From a virus (taxonomy: Duplodnaviria; Heunggongvirae; Uroviricota; Caudoviricetes), in the IMG/VR virus record IMGVR_UViG_3300035515_000158: a stretch of 63,143 bases of DNA; one strand, 5' to 3'. Below the pieces are notes generated by a model. That model was not told where the DNA came from, ran no database searches, and saw only the letters and a list, made by a program, of their open reading frames with translations. Shown piece by piece: positions 41,348-57,172 of this stretch (position 1 is its first letter; the number at the start of each line of letters is the position of its first letter). The translations under genes were made by a program, and so were the position numbers.

Positions 41348-41353
41348 TCGTTT

Positions 41354-41801: not shown

Positions 41802-41833
41802 CAAAGTTACAATAAATTTTTGAAACTACCAAA
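41802..41833 (-). promoter_or_regulatory. Bacteroidota sigma-A promoter
   Basis: TTTG-N20-TAACTTTG. Confidence 0.8.
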
Positions 41834-41839
41834 TTTTTT

Positions 41840-42403
41840 TCAATTATTTTGATTCATCGCTTCTAAAATTCCACAGATTAAATATACCATCTTGTTAAAT
41901 CCTTCTTCATCAGCATCAACCTCAATGTAATCAATCTTGTCATACTCAGATTCAATTCCTTCCAAATTCAAAATACCCAATATCTTTTTGTCAAGTTCAT
42001 GGGCTTCTTCCTCTGTTTGATTTCTACCATTGGGATTATATGCTTTCTTTCGGTTCAAAAAGAAATTTACATTGTTGGTATCATAACTCATAAATTCTTC
42101 AACAATCGCAGACTTTAAATATTTCTTGTCTGTATAAGCACACCCAATAAGAATAGGTGAATCATTTATAATTACATCAACTTCTCCAAAACAACGACTA
42201 ATCTTAAATGATTGTTTACCAGTGATATACAGTTGATTGTTGAATACCTTCTTATTTTGTTCCCACACTTTATCCTTAGCGAACTCTGATACATACTCAG
42301 CATCAACCCCCATCATTTTAAGACGTGAGAATAGATACGCCGCACAGGTCGATTTTCCTGTACCCGGTCCCCCAAATAAATTAATTATAACTGTGTTCTT
42401 CAT
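41840..42403 (-). CDS. P-loop NTPase, NadR/AAA_28 nucleotide-kinase-like
   Basis: INLFGGPGTGKST, EFAKD, DSP. Confidence 0.8.
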   Translation of the reverse strand: MKNTVIINLFGGPGTGKSTCAAYLFSRLKMMGVDAEYVSEFAKDKVWEQNKKVFNNQLYITGKQSFKISRCFGEVDVIINDSPILIGCAYTDKKYLKSAIVEEFMSYDTNNVNFFLNRKKAYNPNGRNQTEEEAHELDKKILGILNLEGIESEYDKIDYIEVDADEEGFNKMVYLICGILEAMNQNN

Positions 42404-42768
42404 ATTTTTGTAACAAGTGCTTTATATGTGGACATTCCATTAGCCCAACAAAATTTAAAATGGTCTATGTCATCCTTAATCTGTTTTTCAGTATATAGAA
42501 AATAATAAGGATCCTTTTCCTTTTCACTATCACTCATGTTCACACCAAGACGTTTATATACATCTTTCATCCATTCATCAAAACTTCTCCAACGGTCAAA
42601 GTTCTTAACAAATTCTTCATTACTAACTGTGATAAACTCATTTTCATACTCACCAAAACAAAGTTGATAGGTTATTTCATCTTCATCATGGTCAATTAAA
42701 ACAACCTTACAAACTAAAGCATATTGATTCTGAATCCAATAACTTCCGGTTTCAATATTCCAAACCAT
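42400..42768 (-). CDS. Hypothetical protein
   Basis: 122-aa ORF in operon. Confidence 0.6.
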   Translation of the reverse strand: MVWNIETGSYWIQNQYALVCKVVLIDHDEDEITYQLCFGEYENEFITVSNEEFVKNFDRWRSFDEWMKDVYKRLGVNMSDSEKEKDPYYFLYTEKQIKDDIDHFKFCWANGMSTYKALVTKI

Positions 42769-42780
42769 TTTATCTTTATA

Positions 42781-43185
42781 TTAAATTAAACTTCTATACA
42801 TATATTCCATAAAAAGTCCAAACCTACTTCTACGATGAAATTTCGTAATGAATTCTTCTTTAACTAATTCATTAATTTCATTCTCATCTCTGAATTGTTT
42901 CTCCGTCAAAACACCAGCTAAGTGAGGTTTCTTATTTGGTTTGACAGTATAATAATTAATCATACCATCTTCCGCATCTACTATCCAAAACTTAGTTAAC
43001 TCTTTACCATCATTACTGATAACTCCACCTTGTTTTAGATGTTTAACTATTTCATTTATAGTTCTAAAATGAAACTTCTCAAAATGTTCTCGACTAATCT
43101 CAGATTGTTTCTTTTTCTGAGCTTTGTCTTCATCATAAAATTTCTTGATGTTTTCCATCGTTTCTTCTGACATTCTAATTTCCAT
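42781..43185 (-). CDS. Hypothetical protein
   Basis: 134-aa ORF in operon. Confidence 0.6.
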   Translation of the reverse strand: MEIRMSEETMENIKKFYDEDKAQKKKQSEISREHFEKFHFRTINEIVKHLKQGGVISNDGKELTKFWIVDAEDGMINYYTVKPNKKPHLAGVLTEKQFRDENEINELVKEEFITKFHRRSRFGLFMEYMYRSLI

Positions 43186-43432
43186 GTCTAAATTTATCTA
43201 TGTATAACGGCTGATTAAGTTCCTTCTCAATCATCCATGTGGTTCCATCTTTCTCATTAGTTAACCTTTCAACAATGTCAACAATATCAGACAAACGGAG
43301 TCTACTGGTAACTGAACTAAAAGGATTAATGGAACAGAAAACCATGTCCCATTCTTCCTTCCACCCAAGAACTAATCCATATAGACCATCCTTAAATAGA
43401 ACAATATCAAACATCTCAGGTACTAAATCCAT
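43175..43432 (-). CDS. Hypothetical protein
   Basis: 85-aa ORF below TTTGTTATGTTTA motif. Confidence 0.6.
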   Translation of the reverse strand: MDLVPEMFDIVLFKDGLYGLVLGWKEEWDMVFCSINPFSSVTSRLRLSDIVDIVERLTNEKDGTTWMIEKELNQPLYIDKFRHGN

Positions 43433-43522
43433 AAAGAAATAATTTTATAATCTAAACATAACAAAATTGGCCAAGTCATATTTCAAACTTAGCCAATTTA
43501 AATATTAATACTTGTTAAATCT

Positions 43523-44122
43523 TTAAATACTACACACATATAATTCATCATCATTTGTATAAAAACTCATTGATGAATCTGAGCCCGGAGACCATGAACC
43601 AATTTTCAATGAATCATACATCTCATCAATACAGAAAAACATTTTGGTCATCTTATCTAAATCACCTTTATGTTTTTTAATGAAAGTCTTAACATAATTA
43701 AATATCTCCGTATTTAACTGGTCATAAGACTCTGAAATACTATGGTCATCAATACCATATACTGTTAGAACTTTGTAGTCAACATCACTATCTGGTAACT
43801 GACAATTATCATCAATCACATCATTTAGATAGTTCTTAAATAATCCAGTCTCAAAATCTATCTCAAGGGAATAAGAGTAAACTTCATTTTTTAAGGGGTG
43901 TTCGGTGATATAATCTATTATTAGTTGAACAATAGAATGGTGTAAAATTACCCATTCTGAATTCTTTACTTTACTCTTGTTTTCAGTGATGGGCATATCA
44001 TTAATAAAATCATCTTTTCGATTATCTCTCCACCACTTCCTCCCACAAGTTAACTCACTCTGAGACGTTCGTCGCCAACTTTCCTCATGGAAAATGTCGT
44101 AATAATCATCATATGTTTTCAT
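43523..44122 (-). CDS. Hypothetical acidic protein
   Basis: 199-aa ORF. Confidence 0.65.
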   Translation of the reverse strand: MKTYDDYYDIFHEESWRRTSQSELTCGRKWWRDNRKDDFINDMPITENKSKVKNSEWVILHHSIVQLIIDYITEHPLKNEVYSYSLEIDFETGLFKNYLNDVIDDNCQLPDSDVDYKVLTVYGIDDHSISESYDQLNTEIFNYVKTFIKKHKGDLDKMTKMFFCIDEMYDSLKIGSWSPGSDSSMSFYTNDDELYVCSI

Positions 44123-44165
44123 TATATATATTTAAAAGTGTATATCACTACGGGCATTGTCCTGA

Positions 44166-44756
44166 TCAGTAATCATCCGAATCGTCTATTTCATCCAGAT
44201 TGATTTCGTAGTTGTCTTCAAATTCTTCGAGTCGTTTCTTTAATTCATCACTAAATCTACCCTCTCCAAAACTACTCTGGTCGTGACAATGGTCATATAC
44301 ATCAAGGTATATTCTTGCTTTCTCTAACATATACAACGTTTCTTTTAATTTGTCCTTTTCTTCCTGACTATATCTAACATACCAATTTCCATCAGCATAT
44401 ACCATACAATCACTTTCTCTAATCTCATAGTGCATTGGTATAACCTCACCATCAGATGTTGTATATGTTTCATCTCCATGATTTTTATCAACCCACATAT
44501 TGTCACCAGTCCGTTCTAACCACTCAAGACTATTTAACAAATCCTCAGCTTCCTTTCTGGTTTCAAGTTCCTTCAAATCACAAAGATTATATATGTAGTG
44601 AGAAAATTGATAACAATTCTCACCAGTCTTAAACACGATATTAATAAAGTGTTTTTTTACCATATCAGGTATAGTCTGCTCACTTTTCTTAATATCTCTC
44701 TTTAAGGTTTCGATTATTTCATCAAACCTCCATTCAGGTAAATCAAAATATCTCAT
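44166..44756 (-). CDS. Hypothetical protein
   Basis: Start MRYFD gives ATGA overlap with upstream gene. Confidence 0.65.
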   Translation of the reverse strand: MRYFDLPEWRFDEIIETLKRDIKKSEQTIPDMVKKHFINIVFKTGENCYQFSHYIYNLCDLKELETRKEAEDLLNSLEWLERTGDNMWVDKNHGDETYTTSDGEVIPMHYEIRESDCMVYADGNWYVRYSQEEKDKLKETLYMLEKARIYLDVYDHCHDQSSFGEGRFSDELKKRLEEFEDNYEINLDEIDDSDDY

Positions 44757-45169
44757 TTTCTCTTTTCTTTTGTCCAAATTTCACCATCAAAACAAAATAA
44801 AAAATTACTCAGTTCATCATCTTGAACTCTAAGTAAACAACACTCTTTCCCATTAGAAAGTTTATGGTTGAAACAACATTTTTGACAATAATCATAAGGA
44901 TCACCTTTCAATTCACCATCAATGTTAGGATCATATCTTCTAACTCGATATACATGATCCATACAATCCACCATTTCAGTCGTACGATAATGTCCGCTGA
45001 TTGAAGGAATATTATCTCTCAAACAATTAATCTCTACTACTTTCCCATCTTCATCTCGCTTAGTCACTCCATCAAAAAATGAACATCCTTCACAATGACT
45101 CGGCTCAACACCATTTACGGGATAGTATTTACAACTAACATAACTCTTATAAAATACTTCTTTCTTCAT
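44753..45169 (-). CDS. Hypothetical Cys-rich protein
   Basis: CEGCSFF and CQKCCF motifs. Confidence 0.6.
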   Translation of the reverse strand: MKKEVFYKSYVSCKYYPVNGVEPSHCEGCSFFDGVTKRDEDGKVVEINCLRDNIPSISGHYRTTEMVDCMDHVYRVRRYDPNIDGELKGDPYDYCQKCCFNHKLSNGKECCLLRVQDDELSNFLFCFDGEIWTKEKRK

Positions 45170-45171
45170 AA

Positions 45172-45525
45172 TCAAAACCGTTCAAATTTACCACATTTCT
45201 CACATCTATAATAATCATGATGACTGTCACTAAATCTATGTGTAAACTTATGCTCACATTCACCTTGTAAGACTTCTATCTTATCTCCAATCTCTTTTAT
45301 CTCCTTGTCTATATGGTGTAATGTGTAAGCGATATCATTTCGTTGTAGTCTAACTTTATAACTCTCTCCTAACTCATACTCATTAAATAATTCAAGAGCA
45401 ATGTCAAACCTCTTTACTATATCTCTCAATCGTTCAGCTTCCTTTTGTTGTTTTCTCAATCTTTCAACAAGTCCTTTCACTGGCTCCTCTACCATGTCAA
45501 CTTCTAAATCAAAAAACCTATTCAT
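45172..45525 (-). CDS. Hypothetical coiled-coil protein with C-terminal Zn-ribbon
   Basis: CEHKF...RCEKCG. Confidence 0.6.
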   Translation of the reverse strand: MNRFFDLEVDMVEEPVKGLVERLRKQQKEAERLRDIVKRFDIALELFNEYELGESYKVRLQRNDIAYTLHHIDKEIKEIGDKIEVLQGECEHKFTHRFSDSHHDYYRCEKCGKFERF

Positions 45526-45985
45526 TAACGATTTCAAAATTATAATTATTCCAGACTATCTTCCCATCAAATAATAACTTGGACATATAACCCGGATTAT
45601 TCTTAATATTCTCTTTTATCTCATCTTTCAAAATATCATAAGGTGGTTCAGCCAACGGAATTTTTATTATTGTTATCCTGTCTTTTATCACCTTAATGAC
45701 AGCTCGCTTAAATCCATAACCATCATCATTTATCAGGTTATCTAAATCTTCAAATATGGGGATAACACCAAATTCATATAAGTGCTCCATCGTGTATTGC
45801 TCATAATTAATCAGAAATTGGTCATACGTTTCTACATATTTCCTGAACTCCAATTCTTCATCACATACACCTTCTCCCCATCCACAACATTTCTCTATGA
45901 TTTCACTTGGTGTCAATTTAAGTAATCCCTTCGACTCTAATATTAACATTTCGAGTAACACATTCCTTTCTACTTTTCCCATCAC
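45518..45985 (-). CDS. Hypothetical protein
   Basis: 155-aa ORF. Confidence 0.6.
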   Translation of the reverse strand: MMGKVERNVLLEMLILESKGLLKLTPSEIIEKCCGWGEGVCDEELEFRKYVETYDQFLINYEQYTMEHLYEFGVIPIFEDLDNLINDDGYGFKRAVIKVIKDRITIIKIPLAEPPYDILKDEIKENIKNNPGYMSKLLFDGKIVWNNYNFEIVNE

Positions 45986-46075
45986 ATTTTAATAATAACA
46001 AAAATGTGGAGTTAAAATATAGTATCTCCCCCATATTCCAATTCCACATATTATTTTTTTTTCCTTATACTTTAT

Positions 46076-46591
46076 TTATGATTCTACATTTTCGGTTGTT
46101 TCAGTTTTGTTACCACTCTCATCTTTGAATAACTGGTCAAACTTATCCTTGTTCTTAGCCATATATTCTTGCATAGACTTCAACTGCTCATTCGACATAA
46201 CTGAACTAACTACCGCATATGAACCATTATTCAAAGTGAAATCAGACCTCTGCAATAAACTACTGTATCTCAAGGAAGCACACAATACTCCAAATTCAAG
46301 TTCATCTGTCTTCCACTTATTCACAGTTTCATAGACAACCTTCATTCGCTGAGTTCGTTCCTCCTGTGTTTCCAAAGGTGCCTCTTTCTTACACTTACAC
46401 CCTTCTCCACATTGTCCACTACACTCTCCCTTTTCTTCACATTCACATTTCTCTGTTTTCTCAGCTTCATTCAAAGACTCTACTTCACCAGTGTCACCAT
46501 TAGTCACTGCATCTCCACCACAATTTTGGTCTTGTGATAAACTCTCTAAATCAACTTCATTTTCTTTATCAGCTTTCTTCTTTCGTGCCAT
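46076..46591 (-). CDS. Hypothetical protein with Cys-rich patch
   Basis: CECEEKGECSGQCGEGCKC. Confidence 0.65.
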   Translation of the reverse strand: MARKKKADKENEVDLESLSQDQNCGGDAVTNGDTGEVESLNEAEKTEKCECEEKGECSGQCGEGCKCKKEAPLETQEERTQRMKVVYETVNKWKTDELEFGVLCASLRYSSLLQRSDFTLNNGSYAVVSSVMSNEQLKSMQEYMAKNKDKFDQLFKDESGNKTETTENVES

Positions 46592-46604
46592 ATATATCTA
46601 TTTT

Positions 46605-46925
46605 TTAATCTTTATTTTCTCCATTTAATATCGTCGATTTGTAATTCTTAACCCTGTAATAATCAAACAAACCAACCATAGTTCCTGAATATTGTTCCAT
46701 CAACTTCTTCACATTCCCAGCTCGTGCAGTTAATACTTCATGGGGATGTTCTTCATCAATCTCCAATATTACATAACCATTTCCATAGTCCTCACCTTTC
46801 TGCTCAAACTCATTATTTATCCGCTTCTTCTCATCTTGTAAGAACTCTATAATATACTCAAGTATCTCAACAAAAGTATATTTCTCTAATACTAAATCTA
46901 ACTTAATTTTGTCTATATCTTCCAT
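46605..46925 (-). CDS. Hypothetical protein
   Basis: About 106 aa. Confidence 0.6.
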   Translation of the reverse strand: MEDIDKIKLDLVLEKYTFVEILEYIIEFLQDEKKRINNEFEQKGEDYGNGYVILEIDEEHPHEVLTARAGNVKKLMEQYSGTMVGLFDYYRVKNYKSTILNGENKD

Positions 46926-47154
46926 CAAAATAAAACATTATCATAAACATTAATATCATCCACCAGAAAAAGAAACAAACACAAAAATCACCACATAAAT
47001 CTTGTAACCAATCTACATAACGACCAGCATCTACCTCATCTCCATACCTATATCTCTCAGCAAAGTCCATGAAAAACTTAACATGCTTCTCATACCTCCC
47101 CCTCAAAAATACTCCAATTACACCAAGCAAATATATAATAACAAAATATATCAT
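46903..47154 (-). CDS. Small membrane protein (two hydrophobic segments)
   Basis: MIYFVIIYLLGVIGVFL and FCVCFFFWWMILMFMIMFYF; ATGA overlap at 47151-47154. Confidence 0.55.
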   Translation of the reverse strand: MIYFVIIYLLGVIGVFLRGRYEKHVKFFMDFAERYRYGDEVDAGRYVDWLQDLCGDFCVCFFFWWMILMFMIMFYFDGRYRQN

Positions 47155-47282
47155 ACCGCTACCATTAATAAACAAATGAACATGATTACTAAAAATAAAG
47201 TAAATACATAATCAAATCCTAAAGAAATATACCATCCAAGAAATTTCCAGTATAGTGATTTTATCTTATCTATTATCTTCAT
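47151..47282 (-). CDS. Small membrane peptide (43 aa)
   Basis: Read by hand: MKIIDKIKSLYWKFLGWYISLGFDYVFTLFLVIMFICLLMVAV; promoter-like motif at 47302. Confidence 0.5.
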   Translation of the reverse strand: MKIIDKIKSLYWKFLGWYISLGFDYVFTLFLVIMFICLLMVAV

Positions 47283-47317
47283 ATCTTTTTTAACTTTACT
47301 CTAAATATAACAAATAA

Positions 47318-48049
47318 TTAACTCTTAACCACCGTTTCACATATTTCTTTCTGTATCTCTTCTTCTTCCTTTATATATGTGAAATACTTACCTGTCTGAA
47401 TATAAATGTATATCTTCCCATTTACATACCTATCTATTCCCATCACATATACATCATTCTTAGCCATCAATAACGGTATCACATTATGAACAATACACAA
47501 AAAATATACCCCATACTGCTCATGCAACTTGTTCATCATATTCACTACCCCAACAGTCCATTCTAACGATAATCCCTTGTCTATCTCATCAAAGATAATC
47601 AAAGTCTTGTCATTAAATTTGTCCCTGTTGTCCACTAACCATTTCCCTATCAAATTTAACTCACTCTCCCCATTACTCTTGTGCCGATTCATATATCCAC
47701 CATACTCTACATAACTCTCAGCACTCGCACAATTATTCAAACTCTTAGTGTCATCAAATTCACTCGATAAGAAATATATCTTCTCAAAATCCGTCTCTAC
47801 TTCCGACCTCCCCTCAAAATCATCAGAAAACAAATCTCCATAACCTAACTTCGCTCCCCAACCACTCCTGTCCTCTCCTTCATTATCACACTGACGAACT
47901 CGAACACAATTTATCAACGTACTCTTTCCACACCCATTCTTTCCAGTAATATATATGAAAGGCTCACTCTTCCCTTCAAAATCAAACTCATACTCAGTTC
48001 CACCTTTCAATACTCGCAAATCTTCCTTTATCTTTATCTTTATCTTCAT
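47318..48049 (-). CDS. ABC-type ATPase (stand-alone)
   Basis: GKNGCGKST, signature-like SNGE, LIIFDEIDKGL, H-loop VHN. Confidence 0.75.
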   Translation of the reverse strand: MKIKIKIKEDLRVLKGGTEYEFDFEGKSEPFIYITGKNGCGKSTLINCVRVRQCDNEGEDRSGWGAKLGYGDLFSDDFEGRSEVETDFEKIYFLSSEFDDTKSLNNCASAESYVEYGGYMNRHKSNGESELNLIGKWLVDNRDKFNDKTLIIFDEIDKGLSLEWTVGVVNMMNKLHEQYGVYFLCIVHNVIPLLMAKNDVYVMGIDRYVNGKIYIYIQTGKYFTYIKEEEEIQKEICETVVKS

Positions 48050-48792
48050 CTCTTTTTCCTTTTTTTATTATTCGTTACATCTTCTATGAATACCTCAAAC
48101 CAATCCTTACTGATATTACTTAAAGGATATCCTCCAATCCTTCCTCTCGGCTTGTATTCTACCCCAGCCTCTCGATACCACTTGTAATTTATTGATATGT
48201 GACTGTCATACTTTACCCGGTCACAATATTTCTTCAATAACTTCTTATAAGTACGTATATCTACTAATATCCATCCTCCACTCTCAGCCAATATCTCACT
48301 CCGCTTCGCTACTTCAACAAAATGACACCATATATTTCCACTATACTTAAATGTCCTCGGCTCATTCTCTATTACCCAACTACTCTCAACATACGACTTC
48401 CCCATCTCCCATCCTAATGTTTGTGTATCTTCATCTAAACAAAACCTACTAACATCATATGGATCTATCCCCTTAAATAACTTCTTATACTTTCCTCGCC
48501 ATTCCTTGTGATACTGATTCTTCTCATCAAACCACTCATAAAATAAATCAACTTGTCGTATCTTTAACTTCTTCCCATTCTCATCTTTCAGAAACTTCCG
48601 TCGACCATTCACAATATTTCCACTCCCAACTCCACCTAATAAAAAACTCTCTACAAAACCATGAGGAAAAGCATAAATACCCCACTCAACAGGGGCACTA
48701 TGAAATCCTGTACCATACTCCTTATGATACTGCGGAATCAAATTTCCCCACCTCTTAAATTCCACCTCTAATTTTTTCACAACTTTCTTCAT
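48046..48792 (-). CDS. Hypothetical protein
   Basis: 248-aa ORF. Confidence 0.6.
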   Translation of the reverse strand: MKKVVKKLEVEFKRWGNLIPQYHKEYGTGFHSAPVEWGIYAFPHGFVESFLLGGVGSGNIVNGRRKFLKDENGKKLKIRQVDLFYEWFDEKNQYHKEWRGKYKKLFKGIDPYDVSRFCLDEDTQTLGWEMGKSYVESSWVIENEPRTFKYSGNIWCHFVEVAKRSEILAESGGWILVDIRTYKKLLKKYCDRVKYDSHISINYKWYREAGVEYKPRGRIGGYPLSNISKDWFEVFIEDVTNNKKRKKR

Positions 48793-49411
48793 CTACTCTT
48801 GCGTTCTTTACTTGGCCTATTTCATCCCATTTCTTTACTATAATACAATCACTACATATTCCCTTTAAGTATAAGTCATCATCAGTCATCATTTCTATTG
48901 CGACAACCTCTCCATTTAACCCTATATCTACTCTATGTAATTTATTGACATTATATTCAAATACCAAATCTCCAACCTCTATCAATTCTCCTTTCCTATC
49001 TCTACATCCAGTGTCTCCACCTAAATGCCCTCCTATTATACTTCGCCAATCACTATTCATGTGTTCCCTATACTCAGCTAAATCAGGACATTCAGTATAT
49101 TCCCTATCTCGTTGCCCATATCCCCAATCATAAAAATTACCCCCATAATAACTGTATAAAACAATTACAGTATAGGGTGCATTCTTACAGTAATATTCAT
49201 ACCCTGACATATTACCATAACTATCTTCATAACTCTCATTATCTTTATTATATTTGACATCTGTTTCTTCTTTCCAATTCATATCTAATATCCTAAGAAA
49301 ATGCTTGTCAAATTCTAAAAAATCAAAACAACGAGGATCTAATTCACTCAAAACATCCCTTACTTCCTTCAAGATGTTTTCCTTCCTTAAATCAAAATAA
49401 AATCTATTCAT
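48755..49411 (-). CDS. Hypothetical protein, C-terminus YopX-like
   Basis: TGCRDRKGELIEVGDLV resembles the YopX motif. Confidence 0.5.
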   Translation of the reverse strand: MNRFYFDLRKENILKEVRDVLSELDPRCFDFLEFDKHFLRILDMNWKEETDVKYNKDNESYEDSYGNMSGYEYYCKNAPYTVIVLYSYYGGNFYDWGYGQRDREYTECPDLAEYREHMNSDWRSIIGGHLGGDTGCRDRKGELIEVGDLVFEYNVNKLHRVDIGLNGEVVAIEMMTDDDLYLKGICSDCIIVKKWDEIGQVKNARVDEESCEKIRGGI

Positions 49412-49429
49412 ACTTAAAACATAACAAAA

Positions 49430-50150
49430 ACGGACATCCCCTCACTTTTTTCAACCCATTTTTTTATTCCCACATTATTTTTTAACATTTCTGTAATATT
49501 AATGTAAAATTATGTCTTTTTTATCTATATATTTTATTATTGAATTTTTTTGTAATCTATTTATACTGAGCTAATTAAATTCAAAAATATATACCCAATT
49601 TTTTAACTCAATTTTGTCAGATTTGTTTCAATTTATTTTTAATTTATTTTAATTTGTTTCAATTTATTTTTAATTTACTGAGCCAAGATCTAGCCTTCTT
49701 TGATTGATTCTGAATACCCCCTAAAAAACCCTAATTTTAGCTAATTTTACCCCCTTCCCAAAATAGGCCAAAAATACCCCAAAATTAGCGTTTTTTACAT
49801 ATCCTAAAAATACCCCAAAATTAGCTTATTTTACCCCCTCAGAAATTAGCTCATTTTACCCCTTTGAAAAACCACCCCTCCAACTCAGGACAGACCGGAA
49901 ATGTAGTTTTCACAGATTTCCACAGATTTCCAAGAATTCCAAAAAAGTGTAAAATATGGTAAAAAAGGGGAATAAAATAAGCTAAGTAAAAAAGAGGTAA
50001 AAAGTGTAAAAATAGGTAAAAAGTAAGAAAGGGGAAAAACATGGAAAATAGTGAAAAAATGTGTCTTAAAATTAGCTAAGTAAAAAAGAGGTAAAAATGG
50101 GAAAAATCGTAAAATCGTTCGTATAGTAAAATAGGTAAATGTGAGGAAAT
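49430..50150. other. Putative replication-origin core: AT-rich tract plus direct and inverted short repeats at a GC-skew switch
   Basis: 26-bp AT repeat x2 (49621, 49652); 20-bp repeat x2 (49770, 49806); TTTTACC x3 left versus GGTAAAA x4 right; CACAGATTTC x2 (49911-49930); 24-bp repeat x2 (49980, 50074). Confidence 0.5.
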
Positions 50151-50159
50151 AGGGTTAAT

Positions 50160-52540
50160 ATGTATCTGGGGGTTATTTACTGGGCTGAGGAATCTGGTAT
50201 CTGGAAGTCTGGGGTGTATATCTGGGGGTTAATATATCCGGTATGGTAGATATGGGGGTGGATGAGTAGTAGTTTCGTCATTCGTATCGTGAGGGAAAGG
50301 GAGAGGAATGGTAAAGAGGGTTAAGTTGAGGAAGGGGGATGGACAGTTATATGGGTTGAGTTCTGGTCAGCTGAGTCTGGGGACTGGGTTAAGATGACAA
50401 AATGAAAGTAAAAGAGGGGATTTACTTACATGCTTATAAAAAATCCCCAGAGTTTTTCTTCAGGAGGTGACAAAATGAAAGTAAAAATAGGGATATAGTA
50501 ACAAAATGTCAAATGGGATAGTAGTTTCGTTTATCGTATCGTGATGAGATATGGGTTCTTGGTTAGCTGAGTTCTTGGACAGTGGTATGAAATTTGATGA
50601 AGGGGATGTGATGAGTTTGGTGATATTGGACTGAGCTGCGGGAATGAGATAAATCAGGAACAGGGGGACTTGGGTGGAGAACAGGGAGTAGAAAAGATAA
50701 TCTGAGTCGGGGAAGGGGAATGGACAGAAGTGGGTTTAGTAGTTTCGTCTATCGTAGTTCGTGTTAATCAGTGGGATGAGATTTGATGAGGTTCGAGTCA
50801 GTGAAGGAGGAATGGACAGTCGGTTCTGGGGACTTGGGTTGAGTTCTGGTCAGCTGAGTCTGGGACAACGGGATGAGATTTGAGAGAGATGAGACTCCGG
50901 AGATGGAATGAGTAGAGAAGTCTTGGGTTGGTGGTGTAAACTTGGGGACATTGGACTGTGCTGTGGAAATGAAATGATGACCGGGGTGGAATTAGGGAAT
51001 GGGGAATCCTGTTGTGGTGTGCTGGACAATATTAGGAACAGGGGACTGAGGTGGGGAACAGGGAGTAGAAAAGATGATATGAGTCGGGGAATGGGAATAG
51101 AAAGAAGAAAGAAGTCTTGGTTCTTGGGTTTCGTTATTCGTATCGTGGTGGAAATAGAATGGACAGTGAGATGAGATTTGATGAAGGGTGGTTTCTTGGA
51201 CAGCTGAGTCGGAGAAGGGGAATGGTGTGGAATCTGGAAAACTGGAATCCTGTTGTGGTGTGTTGGACAATATCAGGAACAGGGAAGTTGGATTGGAGGT
51301 AATGTGAGCTGAGTCGGAGAAGGAGGAATGGACAGTCGAGATGAGTAGATTAGATTTGGGTTTCGTCTATCGTTATTCGTGTTAGTCAGTGGGATGAGAT
51401 TTGATGAGGTTCGAGTCAGTGAAGGGGAATGGTCAGTTGGTTTTGGATACTTGGGTGGAGTCTGGACATCGGGATGAGGAATGAAGATGGGTTCTGGATA
51501 CCGTTAGATTTAGTGAGCTTGGTTCTGGGGTTGAGGTATATTTGGTCAGCTGAGTCTGGTTAGTAGAGATGAGTAGATGTCTTGGTTTAGTAGTTTCGTT
51601 ATTCGTATCGTGATGAGATGAGGGTAGTCAGTGATATGAGATTTGATGGAGGTGGGTTCTGGTTCTGGATACTTGGTCAGGTTGAGTCTGGGAATGGTGA
51701 CTGGTGTGGAAGATGAAGTCCTGAGATGGAATCCTGTTATGGTGTGTTGGACAATATTAGGAACAGGGGACTAAGATGAGAACAGGGAGTAGAAAAGATA
51801 ATCTGAGTCGGAGAAGGGGAATGGACAACGAGATGAGATTTGGGTTTCGTTATTCGTGTCGTGTTGGTCAGTGGTATGAGATTTGATGAAGGGTGGAGTT
51901 CTTGGTCAGTTGAGTCTGGTTTGGATTAGAGATGGAATGAGTAGAGAAGTCTTGGGTTAAGTTATCGTTTCTCGTAGTTCGTGTGGAGATTGACTGAGAT
52001 GAGGAATGAAGATGGGTTCTGGATACTTGGGTTGAGTTCTGGTCCGCTGAGTCTGGTTGGGAATAGATGTCTTGGATTGGTGTGTAAACTTGGGGACTTG
52101 GACTGGGTTGAGGAAGATGGGTTCTGGATAACTTGGAGGAATGAAGTTTGGGTGGAATCTGGAAAACTGGAATCCTGTGGAGATGTGCTGGACAATATCA
52201 GGAACAGGGAAGTGGGATTGGGAACAGGGAAGTAAAGTGGGCTGAGTCCGGTTAGTAGTAATGAGTAGACGACTTGGGTTTAGGTTTCGTCATTCGTATC
52301 GTGATGAGATGAGGGTTAAGTTGGAGAAGGGGAATGGACATTTGGTTCTGGATACTTGGGTGGAGTCTGGGAACAACGGGATGAGATTTGATGAAGGGGT
52401 GGAATGATCCTGGAACTGTTGAGGTATCCGGGATGAGGAATGAAGATGGGTTCTGGTTCTGGGAGCTTGGGTTATCTGGGGTCATCCTGTTTCTGGTGAG
52501 CTGAGTCTGGGGACTGAGATGGAAAACAGGGAGGGTTGAA
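50160..52540 (+). repeat. G-rich, C-poor non-coding array of shuffled 15-40 bp modules
   Basis: Recurrent GTTTCGTnnTTCGTATCGTG, CAGCTGAGTCTGG, GATGAGATTTGATGA, GGAGAAGGGGAATGGACAG, GAATCCTGTT..GGACAATATYAGGAACAGGG. Confidence 0.9.
50395..50511 (+). repeat. 117-bp direct repeat, copy 1
   Basis: 14 mismatches, no gaps, against 52542-52658. Confidence 0.95.
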
Positions 52541-52541
52541 A

Positions 52542-52658
52542 TGACAAAATGAAAGTAAAATGAGGGTTTTACTTACACACATAAGAAAAATCCCCTGAGT
52601 TTTTCTTCAGGAGGTGTCAAAATGAAAGTAAAAATCAGGAAATAGTAACAAAATGTCA
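52542..52658 (+). repeat. 117-bp direct repeat, copy 2
   Basis: TGACA...TGTCA ends; internal TG(A/T)CAAAATGAAAGTAAAA x2. Confidence 0.95.
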
Positions 52659-52663
52659 GAATA

Positions 52664-52703
52664 CAAAAAAAAACAATCCCTCAGAAGAAATCCAAGGGAT
52701 TGT
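52664..52703 (-). terminator. Intrinsic terminator ending the early-region transcript before the array
   Basis: ACAATCCCT/AGGGATTGT stem followed on the minus strand by a T run. Confidence 0.75.
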
Positions 52704-52865
52704 GTGACATATTCAGAAAGTTAGGTTAGCACATTTTACAATAATAGCATACTGTGTAATGATTAGTTTAAGGTCTGATTATGTCAGCATATGTAATGAT
52801 GGTCAAAATAAGGATGGTCATAAACTTGGCGAAAAGTCGTGCGAAGAAAAGACCACAGATGGAAA

Positions 52866-53321
52866 CTAAAGGTTGATGGTCAGGTTTTCGATGTTGATAT
52901 TAATCGTGATGCCTGAATTAGTTTCCGTTTCATTACATGCGTCTGTTTCCGGGGTTAGATTTACTGTATCGTCGGTAGAAGCAGAAGTAGTAATAGGGGA
53001 TGGTTTGAACAGTATGCAGTCATCGAGAGATACTAAACCATTTTCATATAGAGTCTGTTCGAGTTTTTTGAATTTATCCTTGGCGTAGAAGTTAACCAAG
53101 AACGGGTCGAACAGTCTGAATTGATTATAATTGAGGGTGTCATTATATGTGAACCCAAACTTATCGAGGAAGACACATTCATAAAGGAATAGGTATCCTC
53201 CTTTATATCTTTTAGTGACAACATTCATGATTTTTCCATGTTCGCCTTTCGTATTCGTAATGATGAGGTCGAATTGTTTAGGTGTGTTTGAGAAATCAGA
53301 TGTCGTAGAAGCTGTTTCCAT
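52866..53321 (-). CDS. Hypothetical protein
   Basis: 151-aa ORF. Confidence 0.55.
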   Translation of the reverse strand: METASTTSDFSNTPKQFDLIITNTKGEHGKIMNVVTKRYKGGYLFLYECVFLDKFGFTYNDTLNYNQFRLFDPFLVNFYAKDKFKKLEQTLYENGLVSLDDCILFKPSPITTSASTDDTVNLTPETDACNETETNSGITININIENLTINL

Positions 53322-53583
53322 TTAGTTTATATTTTATTTCAGATGTACAACAAGGACAACGATATGTGAAAAATTGATAAAGAGGTTGGTTAGGTACCTT
53401 GGCTGATGTTAGACAAGGAGAAGAAGTACCTTTAAATCTATTCCTTGGGCCGGACAGACATTCATCATAACAGTCATGTAATTCCATATCGCTACCACAG
53501 ATTGGACATGATTTGATATCGTATGGATAGAACTTGTGACCATTTACCTCTACGAGTGATGGAGAGATATCAATGTTTTCCAT
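53296..53583 (-). CDS. Small Zn-ribbon protein
   Basis: CPICG...CPCC. Confidence 0.6.
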   Translation of the reverse strand: MENIDISPSLVEVNGHKFYPYDIKSCPICGSDMELHDCYDECLSGPRNRFKGTSSPCLTSAKVPNQPLYQFFTYRCPCCTSEIKYKLNGNSFYDI

Positions 53584-53594
53584 ATCACTGAAAG

Positions 53595-53957
53595 TTAACT
53601 GTTGGACAGAGGGATGTTATTGTCGAGAAGATAACGGATGCAGTTAAAGACAACATCAACGAAATCCAGACCGTTACATTTTTGGAAGTCGGCGTCAGTG
53701 GTTTTTGGATCACTGTAATCCACATAACCTTCATAAATTTGTTCCCAATTCGGTCCGGAAGAAATACTGATTCCGTTGTGTAATTCCATCAGGGCGGAAA
53801 GAGACCAAGCGGGAATATCATCAGGTCCCATTGAGTAATCCTGTTTAGCCAAGAGATATTTACCTGTTACTGAGTAGAACATATCAGCAGTTTCAACAGG
53901 GACATCTTTAGATAGGAGAAACTCAGATTGTTGAATTGAGGTAGCTATTTTATTCAT
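53595..53957 (-). CDS. Hypothetical protein, paralog of 58507-58980
   Basis: TSIQQS..LL....ETAD...PAWSLSALM. Confidence 0.65.
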   Translation of the reverse strand: MNKIATSIQQSEFLLSKDVPVETADMFYSVTGKYLLAKQDYSMGPDDIPAWSLSALMELHNGISISSGPNWEQIYEGYVDYSDPKTTDADFQKCNGLDFVDVVFNCIRYLLDNNIPLSNS

Positions 53958-53959
53958 GA

Positions 53960-54304
53960 TTATTTCTTTTTTGAGCGATTATTTTTCGTAACGACTTCTT
54001 GTTCAAAATAGGGGTCATACCAGTTAAGGATACCGCCATCTTCATTGATTAGATAAACCCAGTAACCTTCTTCGAGTGGATTACCTTTGTTGTCTCTGGA
54101 TTCGCCACTGATCCACCGAGCTTCAATTATTTCTACTGTTTTACCAGCGAAGTCGGAGTAAGGAGGATACCATAGTTCATCTTCTTCATCAGGGTCACAG
54201 ATAATCAGAGGTTCATCATATCCGGGGCAAACTTTAGAGAGAGATGATAGGTCTTTGACTTTTACTTTGTCACCTACCTTGAAGTGGTTATTTGTTCTGT
54301 CCAT
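53960..54304 (-). CDS. Hypothetical protein with KOW/SH3-like domain shared with the paralog family
   Basis: FKVGDKVKVK...FAGKTVEI...YLINEDGG. Confidence 0.6.
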   Translation of the reverse strand: MDRTNNHFKVGDKVKVKDLSSLSKVCPGYDEPLIICDPDEEDELWYPPYSDFAGKTVEIIEARWISGESRDNKGNPLEEGYWVYLINEDGGILNWYDPYFEQEVVTKNNRSKKK

Positions 54305-54339
54305 TGTTTATTTTTTTAGACGATTTTCGTGACGATTAT

Positions 54340-54495
54340 TTACGGAAGAGTTCCACTTTGGTTGTTCCATTTTCGAGGGGGAGTCTCAACAACCTCAAAG
54401 TCGGTATATACATTGTCATTGATTTTGACATTACCGTTGATGATATGTTGATTATAAGCGGCCATCATTGAAAGACCTAAGAACATGCGTTTCAT
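54340..54495 (-). CDS. Small early peptide (51 aa, MKRMFLGLSMM...)
   Basis: Read by hand; sits directly under the duplicated promoter/5'UTR module. Confidence 0.5.
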   Translation of the reverse strand: MKRMFLGLSMMAAYNQHIINGNVKINDNVYTDFEVVETPPRKWNNQSGTLP

Positions 54496-54541
54496 TGTTT
54501 TTTGTTTTTTAGAGAGTTAAACTTGTTTTCTTTTTACATTA

Positions 54542-54573
54542 CAAAGATACTTGATTTTTTTGACTTGACCAAA
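54542..54573 (-). promoter_or_regulatory. Bacteroidota sigma-A promoter
   Basis: TTTG-N20-TATCTTTG. Confidence 0.8.
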
Positions 54574-54625
54574 TTTTAAGTGCTAAAAATTTGTTAAATC
54601 TTTTTTCAATCATCTTTTCAATGTT

Positions 54626-54928
54626 CTACTTTTTATCAGCTATGTCTTCAAGCAACATAGAGGGGAGTATCATGTCCTCATTAATTTCAATCACATTATC
54701 ATCTTTTTTATCAGCTATGTCTTCAAGCAACATAGAGGGGAGTATCATGTCCTCATTAATTTCAATCACATTATCATCTTTTTTATCAGCTATGTCTTCA
54801 AGCAACATAGAGGGGAGTATATTGTCATAATTGGGTTCAATATTTTCGATTTCACGTGCAAGGTCGCGAAGTATCTTGTCATAACCAATATTGTTATTTA
54901 CTTTGTTGCGTTTAGTTGTTTTTTTCAT
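54626..54928 (-). CDS. Early protein with 25-aa tandem repeat
   Basis: ILPSMLLEDIADKKDDNVIEINEDM x2.5; same promoter/UTR module upstream. Confidence 0.6.
   Translation of the reverse strand: MKKTTKRNKVNNNIGYDKILRDLAREIENIEPNYDNILPSMLLEDIADKKDDNVIEINEDMILPSMLLEDIADKKDDNVIEINEDMILPSMLLEDIADKK
54629..54820. repeat. 75-bp perfect tandem repeat, about 2.5 copies
   Basis: ttttatcagctatgtc at 54631, 54706, 54781. Confidence 0.95.
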
Positions 54929-54973
54929 TGTTTTTGTTTTTTAGAGAGTTAAACTTGTTTTCTTTTTACATTA

Positions 54974-55005
54974 CAAAGATACAAGTTTTTCTCAACATCT
55001 CCAAA
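54974..55005 (-). promoter_or_regulatory. Bacteroidota sigma-A promoter
   Basis: TTTG-N20-TATCTTTG. Confidence 0.8.
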
Positions 55006-55062
55006 TAAAAACCGCTAAATAATGCTAACAATATCTGATTACTGAATTACGATTTATTTTCG

Positions 55063-55812
55063 TCAATATTTCAAATGTCGTTCTGTGGTATCTTCATGAC
55101 CAATCGCTGGATGTTTCATGAAGTAGAATAGTGATTGACAGGCCGACTCATATACTCTGAAATAGTTACCGATTTTATACTGGTTCTCATCAAAGTCATC
55201 ACCATAGTCATTCTTAGCGACCACATTGCCTATTTCATTTACATAGAAATAAACACCATAACGTTGAGCCCTCCAAGGAATAGGATTAAAGTCATTCCAA
55301 TCTCTTTTATGTTTAGAGGGGAATAACATGATTTCACCATCCTCATCAAACGTGCCATCTTTATGAAGTATCAGGTCGTTATTGATATAGTATTTGTTTT
55401 TCTGGATTGTTTCTTCTCCGGGTAGTTTTGGTTTTCTCAGGAATATGAAATCACCATACATACTATCCACAATTACATCACCAATCATCGGACAGTAGAA
55501 GACTTGATTTTCTTCACATTTACCAAGGATTTGAATTAGGTCGAGGATAGGGGTTTCAGTTCCATCTAAATTAACGAGAGCTGAGAAACAACCGGAAGTC
55601 CAGACGTTGTTATCTTCCTCAATGGTAAAATAAGTTGAGTCTATTTTATCTTTAATGGTCACGATTTGGTCACAGAAATTACTCATGTCTTCTTTGAAAT
55701 AGAAGGGGAGTTCAATCTTACCTATCGAGATTTGTTTGGTGTTTGTATCTCTGTTCTCTAAATACCACTGTTGAGATTTGACCCTTACTTTATCACCTAC
55801 ATTTAATTTCAT
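55063..55812 (-). CDS. Paralog family member (KOW-like + GExxLFPS + YFYV..G..NYF domains)
   Basis: MKLNVGDKVRVKSQQWY...GEIMLFPSKHKRDW...YFYVNEIG...NYF. Confidence 0.7.
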   Translation of the reverse strand: MKLNVGDKVRVKSQQWYLENRDTNTKQISIGKIELPFYFKEDMSNFCDQIVTIKDKIDSTYFTIEEDNNVWTSGCFSALVNLDGTETPILDLIQILGKCEENQVFYCPMIGDVIVDSMYGDFIFLRKPKLPGEETIQKNKYYINNDLILHKDGTFDEDGEIMLFPSKHKRDWNDFNPIPWRAQRYGVYFYVNEIGNVVAKNDYGDDFDENQYKIGNYFRVYESACQSLFYFMKHPAIGHEDTTERHLKY

Positions 55813-55863
55813 ACGATTATTTGATTGTTAAAAAATTTGGAGAATTGAATTTTATTTACTCTA

Positions 55864-55895
55864 CAAATGTACAAGAAAAAATTCAATTCTCCAAA
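55864..55895 (-). promoter_or_regulatory. Bacteroidota sigma-A promoter inside a 20-bp inverted repeat
   Basis: TTTG-N20-TACATTTG. Confidence 0.75.
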
Positions 55896-55939
55896 TTAGA
55901 CATGCAAAATATGTTTAAAAATTCATTCAGTAAGTTCTA

Positions 55940-57058
55940 TTAATTTCGTGCGAATGAAATCGTTTTTCCCATGAGGTGGTCTTTAGGTGATTGATAAAAT
56001 TCTCCATGTTCGACATCAACAATACATACATCAGTTTTCATGTCTACATAGTTCACCTTAGAGTAGTCATATTTGTCACCATAGATTTCCTTGGCTATGT
56101 TAATGAAATACTCTTGACTTATTTTACGATCTCGCTCAGCTTGGATGGGGTTTTCATTTGACTGTTTCTCGTCGAAGTCTTTCTCAGCGTTATTGATGAA
56201 CCTTTTGATTGCTCGGTTTGATACTGATTGTCCAGTGTAACCATTCAAGTGGTGTCGCGGGGTTGACCAGAACGCACCATTCTCCGGACAGATGATACAT
56301 ACCTTGGTGTTTGAATTTACATAGTTCACCTTAGAGTAGTCGAATTTGTCACCATGAATTTCTTTGGCTCGGCGAATAAACTCATCCTGTGTCAGTTTGT
56401 GTTTCTCGGTTTGGCACACAGCACAACCTTTTCCAGTGAGGTGGTCTTTAGGTGTCTGATAAAATTCACCATGTTTCGGGCAGATGATACATACCTTCGA
56501 CATTGCGTTTACGTACTCGGTTTTAGAATAGTCATACTTTTTACCATGCAGTCGTCGGGCCTTTTCAATGAACTTATCGGTTGTCATTTGGTGTTTATTA
56601 TACCAACAGTCTGGACAGCCAAGTCCTTTCAAGTGATTTATCGGGCTCATCCAGAACTCACCATGTTCAGGACAGATGATACATACCTTAGTTCTTGAAT
56701 TTACATACTCTACCAAGGAATAGTCATACTTGTCACCATGTACTTGTCGAGCTTGGTCAATGAACTTAGCGGTTGTCATCTTGTCAGCGAAACGAGGTCG
56801 GGATTTGTCCATTTCCAACTCGGTCTTGCGAATAAACTCAGCGTGTTCCTTTTGGTTGTCGAGGTTGATATGATTTTCTCGACATGCTGGACAACCAAGT
56901 CCTTCCAAGTGGTTCTGAGGTGTCATCCAAAATTCACCATGTTTCGGACAGATGATACATACTTTAGTTTTAGTGTTTACAAAATTGACTTTAGAATAGT
57001 CATACTTGTCACCATGTACTGCTTGTGCAGATTCAATGAAATTTGTCATTGTACTCAT
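55940..57058 (-). CDS. Five-repeat DUF723-like zinc-binding protein without a nuclease domain
   Basis: F...A..VHGDKYDYS...Y.N..TKVCIICP.HGEF...P..HL.G.GC..C x5, last two missing some Cys ligands. Confidence 0.75.
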   Translation of the reverse strand: MSTMTNFIESAQAVHGDKYDYSKVNFVNTKTKVCIICPKHGEFWMTPQNHLEGLGCPACRENHINLDNQKEHAEFIRKTELEMDKSRPRFADKMTTAKFIDQARQVHGDKYDYSLVEYVNSRTKVCIICPEHGEFWMSPINHLKGLGCPDCWYNKHQMTTDKFIEKARRLHGKKYDYSKTEYVNAMSKVCIICPKHGEFYQTPKDHLTGKGCAVCQTEKHKLTQDEFIRRAKEIHGDKFDYSKVNYVNSNTKVCIICPENGAFWSTPRHHLNGYTGQSVSNRAIKRFINNAEKDFDEKQSNENPIQAERDRKISQEYFINIAKEIYGDKYDYSKVNYVDMKTDVCIVDVEHGEFYQSPKDHLMGKTISFARN

Positions 57059-57172
57059 ATACAATATTTTTAAAAAATTAAAATTAAAAAATTAAATTAA
57101 AAAATTAAATTAAAAAATGTTTGTTTGTAAGATGTTGTTTAATTTATCTTACATTATAATAATAACAAAAAA

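What the first reader, a model, noticed from the sequence alone, without database searches (positions are those of the whole stretch)
49430..50150. Origin-like core: AT-rich unwinding tract, oppositely oriented repeats and a sharp GC-skew flip near 49.9 kb
Seen: very AT-rich 49480-49680 with a 26-bp duplication; left of about 49.9 kb TTTTACC(CC) x3 and AAAAATACCCCAAAATTAGC x2; right of it the reverse-complement GGTAAAA x4 within AGCTAAGTAAAAAAGAGGTAAAAA x2; CACAGATTTC x2 at the centre. The + strand changes from C-rich to G-rich here. Inference: bidirectional replication origin with initiator or helicase-loader sites facing each other.
Basis: partly seen in the sequence, partly recalled or inferred. 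Interest (0 to 1): 0.8.

Follow-up and report, generated by a model that had tools for sequence, protein, structure and literature searches.

The report
Local replication-start footprint in huge phage
A 700-base gene-free core in a roughly 350-kb gut/rumen phage carries an AT-rich tract and two opposed repeat sets, and sits at the centre of a strong mirror-image strand bias that ignores gene direction and fades within 8-9 kb; it is most likely a local DNA replication start site, but this is unproven.

Summary
The AT-rich tract, the 25-bp duplication, the opposed TTTTACC/GGTAAAA repeat sets and the tandem CACAGATTTC are all where stated. The window's cumulative G-C minimum falls at 49,940, between the two repeat sets.

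The main new result concerns 41 genes on either side, all on the minus strand. Their plus-strand third-codon GC skew runs from about -0.78 just left of the centre to +0.77 just right of it. It decays linearly to background at 9.5 kb (left) and 7.9 kb (right). The flip is therefore not a gene-orientation effect. It is also local, not genome-wide.

A related phage (L056, proteins about 50% identical, collinear gene block) has the same layout and the same orientation-independent dipole, and shares short words in the core. It lacks the 2.4-kb G-rich array, so the array is a lineage-specific addition.

The best reading (confidence about 0.5) is a replication initiation site of T4-like type, from which short-range or uncoupled synthesis leaves a local footprint. 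The main rival is a strong promoter or R-loop zone without initiation.

No replication, transcription or binding data could be obtained. The same kind of dipole was noted earlier in this scan on other DNA (e1-1844578, e1-1620605).

The parts
49440..49680 (.). AT-rich tract (candidate unwinding element) with an exact 25-bp direct duplication at 49622 and 49653. It lies between the repeats and the first gene of the conserved leftward gene block.
   Evidence: 83% A+T; duplication; tandem-repeat rows 49608-49677. The equivalent AT tract in L056 is at about 9140-9320.
49681..49905 (+). Left repeat arm, C-rich on +. It holds TTAGCTnATTTTACCCC x3 (49737, 49821, 49846), AAAAATACCCCAAAATTAGC x2 (49770, 49806) and CCCAAAATAGGCC (49757), a word shared with L056.
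   Evidence: G/C clusters recur every 12.0 nt (z about 19; 0 of 500 shuffles reach the peak). Alignment to the L056 core is A2, columns 140-260.
49907..49941 (.). Centre: a 10-nt tandem (CACAGATTTC, 3.6 copies). The window's cumulative G-C minimum is at 49940.
   Evidence: No significant fold on either strand.
49942..50150 (-). Right repeat arm, G/A-rich on +. It holds GGTAAAA x4 (49958, 49996, 50015, 50090), AGCTAAGTAAAAAAGAGGTAAAAA x2 (49980, 50074) and two degenerate inverted copies of the 17-mer (49969-49985, 50063-50079).
   Evidence: (I3). Periodicity of 9.25 nt (z about 16).
41840..49411 (-). Left skew arm: minus-strand genes whose plus-strand GC3 skew rises in magnitude from about -0.3 to -0.8 towards the centre. 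It is the head of a gene block that is collinear with L056.
52866..57064 (-). Right skew arm: minus-strand genes that point towards the centre. Their plus-strand GC3 skew is +0.39 to +0.51 for the four nearest genes and about 0 by 57 kb, so their coding strand is C-rich, unlike other genes.
50151..52541 (+). A 2.4-kb non-coding mosaic repeat array, G-rich and C-poor (G 37%, C 9%). It adjoins the core, occupies the inner part of the right arm, and is absent from the relative L056.
   Evidence: Not coding under TAG/TGA recoding. No Rfam match. L056 has only about 300 nt of C-rich spacer in its place.
52673..52703 (-). Terminator-like hairpin with a T-run that closes the right-hand minus-strand genes at the edge of the gene-free region.
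   Evidence: 13 pairs, followed by T8.
20518..22332 (-). Candidate primase/initiator: an archaeo-eukaryotic primase (AEP) primase-polymerase fold (residues about 105-350) plus a C-terminal winged helix (about 490-580). It lies next to a UvsW-like helicase (18937-20433).
   Evidence: AlphaFold2 model, pLDDT 88. Z 8.3-7.3 to LigD polymerase, Prim-PolC, the CRISPR-associated prim-pol (CAPP) and S-2L PrimPol, and Z about 6.5 to PadR-type winged helices. PF03090 matches weakly in 2 of 14 homologues. UvsW_N, ResIII and Helicase_C on the neighbouring gene.

Best explanation
The core (49440-50150) is a conserved cis-acting site at which the phage DNA is opened and copied outward in both directions. 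In other words, it is a replication initiation site.

Shown:
- An AT-rich tract lies beside two opposed, periodic repeat sets that meet at 49940.
- Silent-site strand composition flips there with origin polarity. It does so regardless of gene direction and decays linearly to background within 8-9.5 kb on each side.
- A related phage has the same layout at the head of the same gene block.

Inferred:
- The repeats position an initiator or shape the DNA, and the AT tract melts.
- Synthesis starts here as in T4 origins (primer RNA or primase at an AT-rich unwinding element).
- The footprint stays local for one of two reasons. Either origin-started forks travel only a few kb before stalling, with the rest of the genome copied later by recombination-started forks of random direction, as in T4. 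Or the first several kb are made by leading-strand synthesis that is uncoupled from lagging-strand synthesis, so the displaced strand stays single-stranded longest next to the start. The second model is the mitochondrial type of gradient, and would fit the very high amplitude and the linear decay.
- The 2.4-kb G-rich array is a lineage-specific addition inside the right arm and is not part of the conserved core.
For: 1. Position and polarity. The cumulative G-C minimum of the 63-kb window is at 49940, between the repeat sets. The + strand is C-rich to the left and G-rich to the right, as at origins.

2. Orientation independence. All 41 genes from 34.8 to 62.8 kb are on the minus strand, yet plus-strand GC3 skew is -0.59 (mean, nearer than 4.6 kb) on the left and +0.46 on the right (Mann-Whitney p = 0.004). 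Linear fits extrapolate to -0.78 and +0.77 at the centre and reach the far-field mean at 9.5 and 7.9 kb (Spearman rho 0.83, p = 6e-7, and -0.67, p = 0.003). Four-fold sites agree (GC skew -0.70 against +0.36).

3. Conservation. L056 has a collinear block of 11 shared proteins at 32-65% identity. It has a gene-free 8492-9326 with the G-C minimum at 8835, and the same order of elements: TTTTAC(C)-type units, then GGGGT(T)ATTTT and GGCCTATTTTGGG units, then an AT tract, then the gene block. The two genes pointing into its centre have GC3 skew -0.36 and -0.35. The genes leaving it have +0.5 to +0.7, fading with distance. The genes on the far side of the centre are unrelated in the two phages, so the effect depends on position, not on gene content.

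4. Origin-type anatomy. The tract is 83% A+T over 240 bp. The 17-mer repeat is unique to the core in 63 kb. Periodicity is strong, at 12.0 and 9.25 nt.

5. Context. The phage encodes a UvsW-like helicase and an AEP primase-polymerase with a winged helix. In T4, oriF and oriG are a promoter plus an AT-rich unwinding element, and oriE has evenly spaced 12-nt repeats. In T4, early forks also stall and give sub-genomic DNA, and UvsW removes origin R-loops (PMC3016281).
Against: - There is no direct evidence of initiation: no coverage, nascent-strand or binding data.
- The skew is local. In the far field on both sides plus-strand GC3 skew is near 0, or follows gene direction. This site does not organise strand composition or gene orientation on a genome scale.
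- Genes to the right are head-on to a rightward fork for at least 10 kb.
- No replication gene adjoins the core.
- The switch point lies 260 nt from the AT tract, inside the repeats. The repeats' own composition helps to set it.
- The A/T component is inconsistent with simple cytosine deamination of a displaced strand. At four-fold sites of the left arm, the G-rich strand gains A and loses T. In L056, T is enriched on the G-rich strand.
- Between two strains about 98.5% identical, the core kb is the most diverged (3.2%) and one 17-mer copy is mutated.
- Only one relative could be found.
Confidence: 0.5

Rival explanations
1. The core is a very strong divergent transcription start or R-loop zone without replication initiation. 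Transcripts leave it in both directions. The non-template strand on each side becomes G-rich and purine-rich, either by transcription-associated mutation or by selection for stable RNA:DNA hybrids.
For: - The conserved gene block starts at the core and points away from it.
- The AT-rich tract lies just upstream of the block's first gene.
- In the left arm the G-rich strand also gains A at four-fold sites. This is purine loading rather than a keto skew, and it suits RNA:DNA hybrid stability.
- The array has 26-36 G-runs per kb on the + strand.
- T4 origins are themselves promoters, so this rival overlaps the best explanation.
Against: - Genes at 52.9-57 kb, and the two genes upstream of the centre in L056, are transcribed towards the centre but carry the opposite silent-site skew. 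Explaining this needs dominant antisense read-through over 4-7 kb.
- No host-type promoter (TTTG N17-23 TAnnTTTG) lies in 49.4-50.2 kb, although six good ones lie elsewhere in the window.
- Sigma-70-like matches in the region are unconvincing: 21 found against 12 +/- 3.2 expected over 4.4 kb.
- After a coding-strand baseline of about 0.1 is removed, the two arms have equal amplitude (+/-0.78). This points to a symmetric process.
Confidence: 0.22
2. The core is the site of another strand-specific DNA transaction. Candidates are a packaging start or genome end with resection, a nick or recombination hotspot, or a centromere-like or anchoring platform that uses the periodic repeats.
For: - The repeats are periodic and opposed.
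- The core lies at the boundary between a conserved block and a variable region.
- T4 origins coincide with recombination hotspots (reference list of PMC3016281).
Against: - 5'-to-3' resection from an end at this site would expose the minus strand on the right and the plus strand on the left. That predicts the opposite polarity, if exposure depletes C. This is reasoning, not a test.
- A binding platform alone does not explain a silent-site gradient of 8-9 kb.
- The end of the 351.6-kb contig lies near window position 520, not at the core.
Confidence: 0.1
3. The pattern is a compositional accident: foreign DNA, or amino-acid or codon preferences of the flanking genes, with repeats that have no function.
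For: - The region right of 53 kb has higher G+C (37-41%) than the left (29-32%).
- The strand partition of the short repeats follows from the skew itself.
Against: - The gradient appears at third codon positions and at four-fold sites and scales with distance.
- It recurs around the homologous core in L056, next to unrelated genes.
- The 17-mer repeat is far beyond chance.
Confidence: 0.03

Closest known systems
Bacteriophage T4 origins oriF/oriG (R-loop origins)
   Same: A short non-coding element with an AT-rich unwinding tract at the head of a transcription unit. T4 initiates in two steps, its early forks stall and give sub-genomic DNA, and a UvsW helicase is encoded by the phage (PMC3016281; UvsW-like gene).
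   Different: No promoter could be identified in the core. The T4 elements are about 100 bp and have no opposed repeat sets. In T4 the compositional shifts coincide with switches of transcription direction, whereas here all flanking genes share one strand. An R-loop is not shown here.
T4 oriE and iteron-type origins (lambda ori, plasmid oriV, bacterial oriC)
   Same: Clustered, evenly spaced short repeats lie beside an AT-rich tract. The 12.0-nt spacing in the left arm recalls the 12-nt repeats of oriE. The skew minimum falls at the site.
   Different: No initiator gene is adjacent and binding is untested. The repeats here form two opposed sets with different spacings (12.0 and 9.25 nt). The skew switch is local, not replichore-wide.
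Vertebrate mitochondrial strand-displacement asymmetry (established knowledge, not checked here)
   Same: The silent-site GC skew is very large (about 0.8) and changes linearly with position. That is what a strand left single-stranded for a position-dependent time would show.
   Different: The dipole here is two-sided and only about 17 kb long. The A/T component does not show the clear deamination signature in this phage.
Skew jumps and N-domains at mammalian replication origins (established knowledge, not checked here)
   Same: There is an upward jump of skew at the start site, followed by a linear decline with distance. The skew is separable from the transcription-linked skew.
   Different: The scale is kb rather than Mb, and the amplitude is roughly ten times larger. 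This is a phage, not a chromosome.

Membership tests
Replication origin (AT-rich unwinding element plus repeated sites) | AT-rich, easily melted tract | tested here: met
   49440-49680 is 83% A+T, against about 69% for the window.
Replication origin (AT-rich unwinding element plus repeated sites) | Clustered repeated sites bound by an initiator | tested here: inconclusive
   The repeats are present, are unique to the core and are periodic. Words are shared with L056. Binding cannot be tested with these tools.
Replication origin (AT-rich unwinding element plus repeated sites) | Strand-composition switch with origin polarity, independent of gene direction | tested here: met
   Met locally and in L056. 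Genome-wide it could not be tested, because the whole contig is not retrievable.
Replication origin (AT-rich unwinding element plus repeated sites) | DNA synthesis starts there (marker frequency, nascent strands, autonomous replication) | not testable with these tools
No culture exists.
Replication origin (AT-rich unwinding element plus repeated sites) | Initiator or replication gene adjacent (common, not universal) | tested here: not met
   The flanking genes have no replication annotation. The AEP/winged-helix gene is 28 kb away.
T4-type R-loop origin (oriF/oriG) | Promoter that fires into the unwinding element | tested here: inconclusive
   There is no Bacteroidota-type -33/-7 match in the core. 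There are only weak sigma-70-like matches.
T4-type R-loop origin (oriF/oriG) | Persistent RNA:DNA hybrid used as primer | not testable with these tools
   This needs R-loop mapping (DRIP) or nuclease mapping in infected cells.
T4-type R-loop origin (oriF/oriG) | Phage encodes a UvsW-type helicase | tested here: met
   18937-20433 carries UvsW_N, ResIII, DEAD and Helicase_C and matches phrog_16 at 1.6e-74.
AEP primase-polymerase / plasmid Rep (PF03090) for the 20518-22332 protein | AEP catalytic fold with the DxD motif | tested here: met
   Residues 105-350 match LigD polymerase (Z 8.3), Prim-PolC (8.0), CAPP (7.6) and S-2L PrimPol (7.3). The family consensus includes VLDIDV. The Z values are only just above the tool's usual noise.
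AEP primase-polymerase / plasmid Rep (PF03090) for the 20518-22332 protein | Sequence membership in Pfam Replicase / PriCT-1 | tested here: inconclusive
   The protein itself has no Pfam hit. PF03090 matches at E = 0.01 in 2 of 14 homologues. The Atlas search gives leads only.

The most novel reading that the evidence does not exclude
Local, orientation-independent strand-composition dipoles may be sequence fossils of phage replication start sites at which the first several kb are made by short-lived or uncoupled forks. If so, origins of uncultivated huge phages could be mapped from sequence alone. This Bacteroidota-type huge phage would then replicate in two modes, like T4, from a conserved repeat-flanked origin.
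Probability: 0.4. Interest if true: 0.7.

Novelty: new variant of a known kind. Interest (0 to 1): 0.58.

Why it matters
Nothing is known experimentally about how huge uncultivated phages of gut and rumen Bacteroidota start DNA replication. In such genomes origins are usually guessed from genome-wide skew.

Here the signal is different. It is a very strong dipole (GC3 skew about +/-0.78) that is symmetric, decays linearly and spans only about 17 kb. It is centred on a conserved non-coding core, and it is separable from gene orientation.

If it marks initiation, it gives a precise and testable origin: a 700-bp fragment, a defined repeat and a candidate primase/winged-helix protein. It also says something about mechanism, namely short-range or uncoupled synthesis near the start.

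If it does not mark initiation, an unknown strand-specific process is shaping silent sites over many genes.

Tried and rejected
- **Coding under another genetic code.** With TAG=Q and TGA=W, several overlapping frames open at once and give W-rich nonsense. Rejected.
- **Known RNA families.** No Rfam match at E up to 1 over 49.0-53.0 kb.
- **tRNAs.** None in the window.
- **Folded RNA or DNA.** The centre and the 126-bp elements do not fold better than shuffles (z from -1.7 to +1.5).
- **G-quadruplex array.** Only one canonical motif was found. Rejected.
- **Similar DNA in phage records.** None.
- **IMG/VR scans.** A 19-mer scan returned 45 loci, none of which matched the window by blastn at E up to 1e-5, so they are unrelated. 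An array-module pattern gave no hit. Protein-based scans with the two flanking proteins gave nothing. A 17-mer scan gave 6 hits, about the number expected by chance (my own estimate, not computed), none with a dipole.
- **Whole genome.** Not held, so a genome-wide skew profile was not possible.
- **Homologues of the flanking genes.** The 218-aa protein has only a 98% variant. The 203-aa protein has only a short-contig relative.
- **Other relatives of the AAA protein.** P0013, P0007, P0003 and P0004 sit in other contexts without a gene-free core. The AAA protein has only one small match in phage records.
- **RNA evidence.** Metatranscriptome runs X1 and X2 hold 0.28 and 0.23 of the sampled words of 46.5-55.5 kb. 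This is no evidence either way.
- **Foldseek on the whole 604-residue model.** No significant match.
- **Elevated divergence in the arm.** Not seen: 1.3% in the arm against 1.6% elsewhere between strains.
- **Terminus or end-resection readings.** Rejected on polarity.

Full report
**What the window is.** The window comes from a huge phage. Its genes occur letter for letter on a 351,598-bp JGI metagenome contig and on several other contigs. Gut metatranscriptome runs also hold parts of it. Its nearest annotated relatives are distant. A 1327-aa protein matches uncultured 460-735-kb phages, Lak phages of Prevotella and jumbo phages of Flavobacteriia at 26-35% identity. No whole genome is held for it.

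**The observation.** The stretch from 49412 to 52865 has no credible gene.
- 49440-49680 is 83% A+T. It contains an exact 25-bp duplication at 49622 and 49653.
- Left of 49.9 kb there are three exact copies of TTAGCTnATTTTACCCC and two of AAAAATACCCCAAAATTAGC.
- Right of 49.9 kb there are four GGTAAAA, two copies of a 24-mer, and two degenerate inverted copies of the 17-mer.
- At the centre, CACAGATTTC forms a 10-nt tandem.

These checks rest. The 17-mer occurs nowhere else in the 63 kb. G/C clusters recur every 12.0 nt in the left arm and every 9.25 nt in the right arm, far beyond shuffles. The cumulative G-C curve of the whole window has its minimum at 49940, between the two repeat sets. The flip occurs within 100 nt. 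One caveat applies: the strand partition of the short repeats partly follows from the skew itself.

**The flip is not a gene-direction effect, and it is local.** Elsewhere in the window the skew follows gene orientation, with the coding strand slightly G-rich. Around the core all 41 genes from 34.8 to 62.8 kb lie on the minus strand. Even so, their plus-strand third-position GC skew is mirror-imaged.
- On the left it runs from about -0.07 at 35-41 kb to -0.8 at 48 kb.
- On the right it is +0.39 to +0.51 at 52.9-54.3 kb and falls to about 0 by 57 kb.
- Linear fits extrapolate to -0.78 and +0.77 at the centre. They reach the far-field mean at 9.5 and 7.9 kb. Distance and skew are strongly correlated on both sides.
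- Four-fold degenerate sites agree.

The genes on the right are transcribed towards the core, yet they have a C-rich coding strand. This is the opposite of what their own transcription would give. The far field on both sides shows no replichore-type bias. The feature is therefore a dipole about 17 kb long, not a genome-scale switch.

**Conservation.** Only one relative lineage could be reached: L056, a 37-kb contig. Eleven of its proteins match the left-hand block of the window in the same order, at 32-65% identity. The genes on the other side of its gene-free region are unrelated to those in the window.

L056 has the same anatomy in the same order relative to the gene block:
- a cumulative G-C minimum at 8835, inside the gene-free 8492-9326;
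- TTTTAC(C)-type units;
- then GGGGT(T)ATTTT and GGCCTATTTTGGG units;
- then an AT tract;
- then genes with GC3 skew of +0.5 to +0.7 that fades with distance.

The two genes pointing into the L056 centre have GC3 skew of -0.36 and -0.35. About 120 nt of the two cores can be aligned, and they share words of 13 to 17 nt. L056 has only about 300 nt of C-rich spacer where the window has the 2.4-kb G-rich array. The array is therefore a lineage-specific addition and not part of the conserved core.

**What it most likely is.** The evidence best fits a site where DNA synthesis starts and proceeds outward in both directions. The points in favour are the polarity, the symmetry, the independence from gene direction, the position dependence next to unrelated genes in two phages, the AT-rich tract and the clustered periodic repeats.

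The local extent needs an explanation. Two are offered, and both are inferences.
- *Fork directionality.* Forks from this site travel only a few kb, and the rest of the genome is copied by forks of random direction. The T4 review describes exactly this behaviour. Origin forks stall early and leave sub-genomic DNA, later replication is recombination-dependent, and UvsW removes origin R-loops (PMC3016281). This phage encodes a UvsW-like helicase.
- *Uncoupled synthesis.* Leading-strand synthesis is uncoupled near the start, so the displaced strand stays single-stranded longest next to the origin. This would fit the very high amplitude and the linear decay, as in vertebrate mitochondrial DNA (established knowledge, not checked here).

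It has a primase-polymerase fold (Z 8.3-7.3) and a C-terminal winged helix (Z about 6.5). It is thus a plausible primase or initiator, but nothing ties it to this site.

**Weaknesses.**
- There are no replication, transcription or binding data.
- The one chance to place RNA or DNA reads was lost to a filter.
- No promoter could be identified in the core.
- No replication gene is adjacent.
- The A/T part of the bias is not the classical deamination signature in this phage. The G-rich strand gains A at four-fold sites in the left arm. In L056, by contrast, T is enriched on the G-rich strand. Purine loading would suit an R-loop reading.
- Between two strains that are about 98.5% identical, the core kb is the most diverged stretch.
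- The main rival is a strong divergent promoter or R-loop zone. It overlaps the origin reading, because T4 origins are promoters. On its own it needs dominant antisense transcription across 4-7 kb of right-hand genes.

**Comparison with what is known, and novelty.** AT-rich tract plus repeats plus a skew minimum is the textbook origin pattern. What differs here:
- the dipole is local, very strong and linearly decaying;
- it sits among genes that all share one direction;
- it is conserved around a specific non-coding core in huge phages.

I rate it a new variant of a known kind. Earlier follow-ups in this scan reached a similar reading on other DNA: e1-1844578, a roughly 350-kb rumen phage that shares words with this region, and e1-1620605, another phage dipole. 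These are leads, not independent support.

Noticed in passing
window 50151-52541: A 2.4-kb non-coding array of shuffled modules (G 37%, C 9% on +). The modules include TCGT triads, GCTGAGTC, GAGATTTGATGA and an 81-nt module in 4 copies. G content is well above that of four-fold sites nearby (22%), so the array is probably not just neutral drift. It is absent from the relative L056.
   Followed up: partly
window 50386-50511 and 52533-52658: Two 126-bp direct repeats (87% identical) bracket most of the array. Each holds TGACAAAATGAAAGTAAAA twice, around hairpins that look like terminators for leftward transcription. Their folds are not better than shuffles.
   Followed up: partly
window 20518-22332 (-): The protein has no Pfam or PHROG hit, but it models well (pLDDT 88). 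The model shows an N-terminal beta domain, an AEP primase-polymerase fold and a winged helix. It belongs to a small family of 31 representatives.
   Followed up: yes
window 38795, 41802, 54542, 54974, 55864, 62038 (all -): Six Bacteroidota-type promoters share an extended consensus, TTTGG..N..GTAnCTTTG. All lie upstream of minus-strand genes. None lies in the core.
   Followed up: no
L069-L073 (metagenome contigs): Unrelated short contigs hold arrays of GGCCTATTTTGGGG-like units several hundred nt long. L071 and L073 show a 10.25-10.5-nt period, and there the array then flips to the complementary units. The order is G-type then C-type, the opposite of the window's core. Some lie next to GAAGCCTCGC tandem repeats. 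What these elements are is unknown.
   Followed up: partly
window 54630-54841: A 137-nt stretch is repeated at an offset of 75 nt with 95% identity. This is an internal tandem duplication inside the 100-aa ORF 54626-54928.
   Followed up: no
window 37165-42403 (-): The conserved block includes an SmpB-like protein, a DHH phosphoesterase, a DUF2828/phrog_850 protein and a kinase-like AAA_28 protein. This looks like an RNA-repair or translation-rescue set in a phage.
   Followed up: no
window 53000-63143 versus 1-49000: G+C steps up from 29-32% left of the core to 37-41% right of it. The right-hand genes have no homologues in L056, so the core sits at a boundary between a conserved region and a variable one.
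   Followed up: partly
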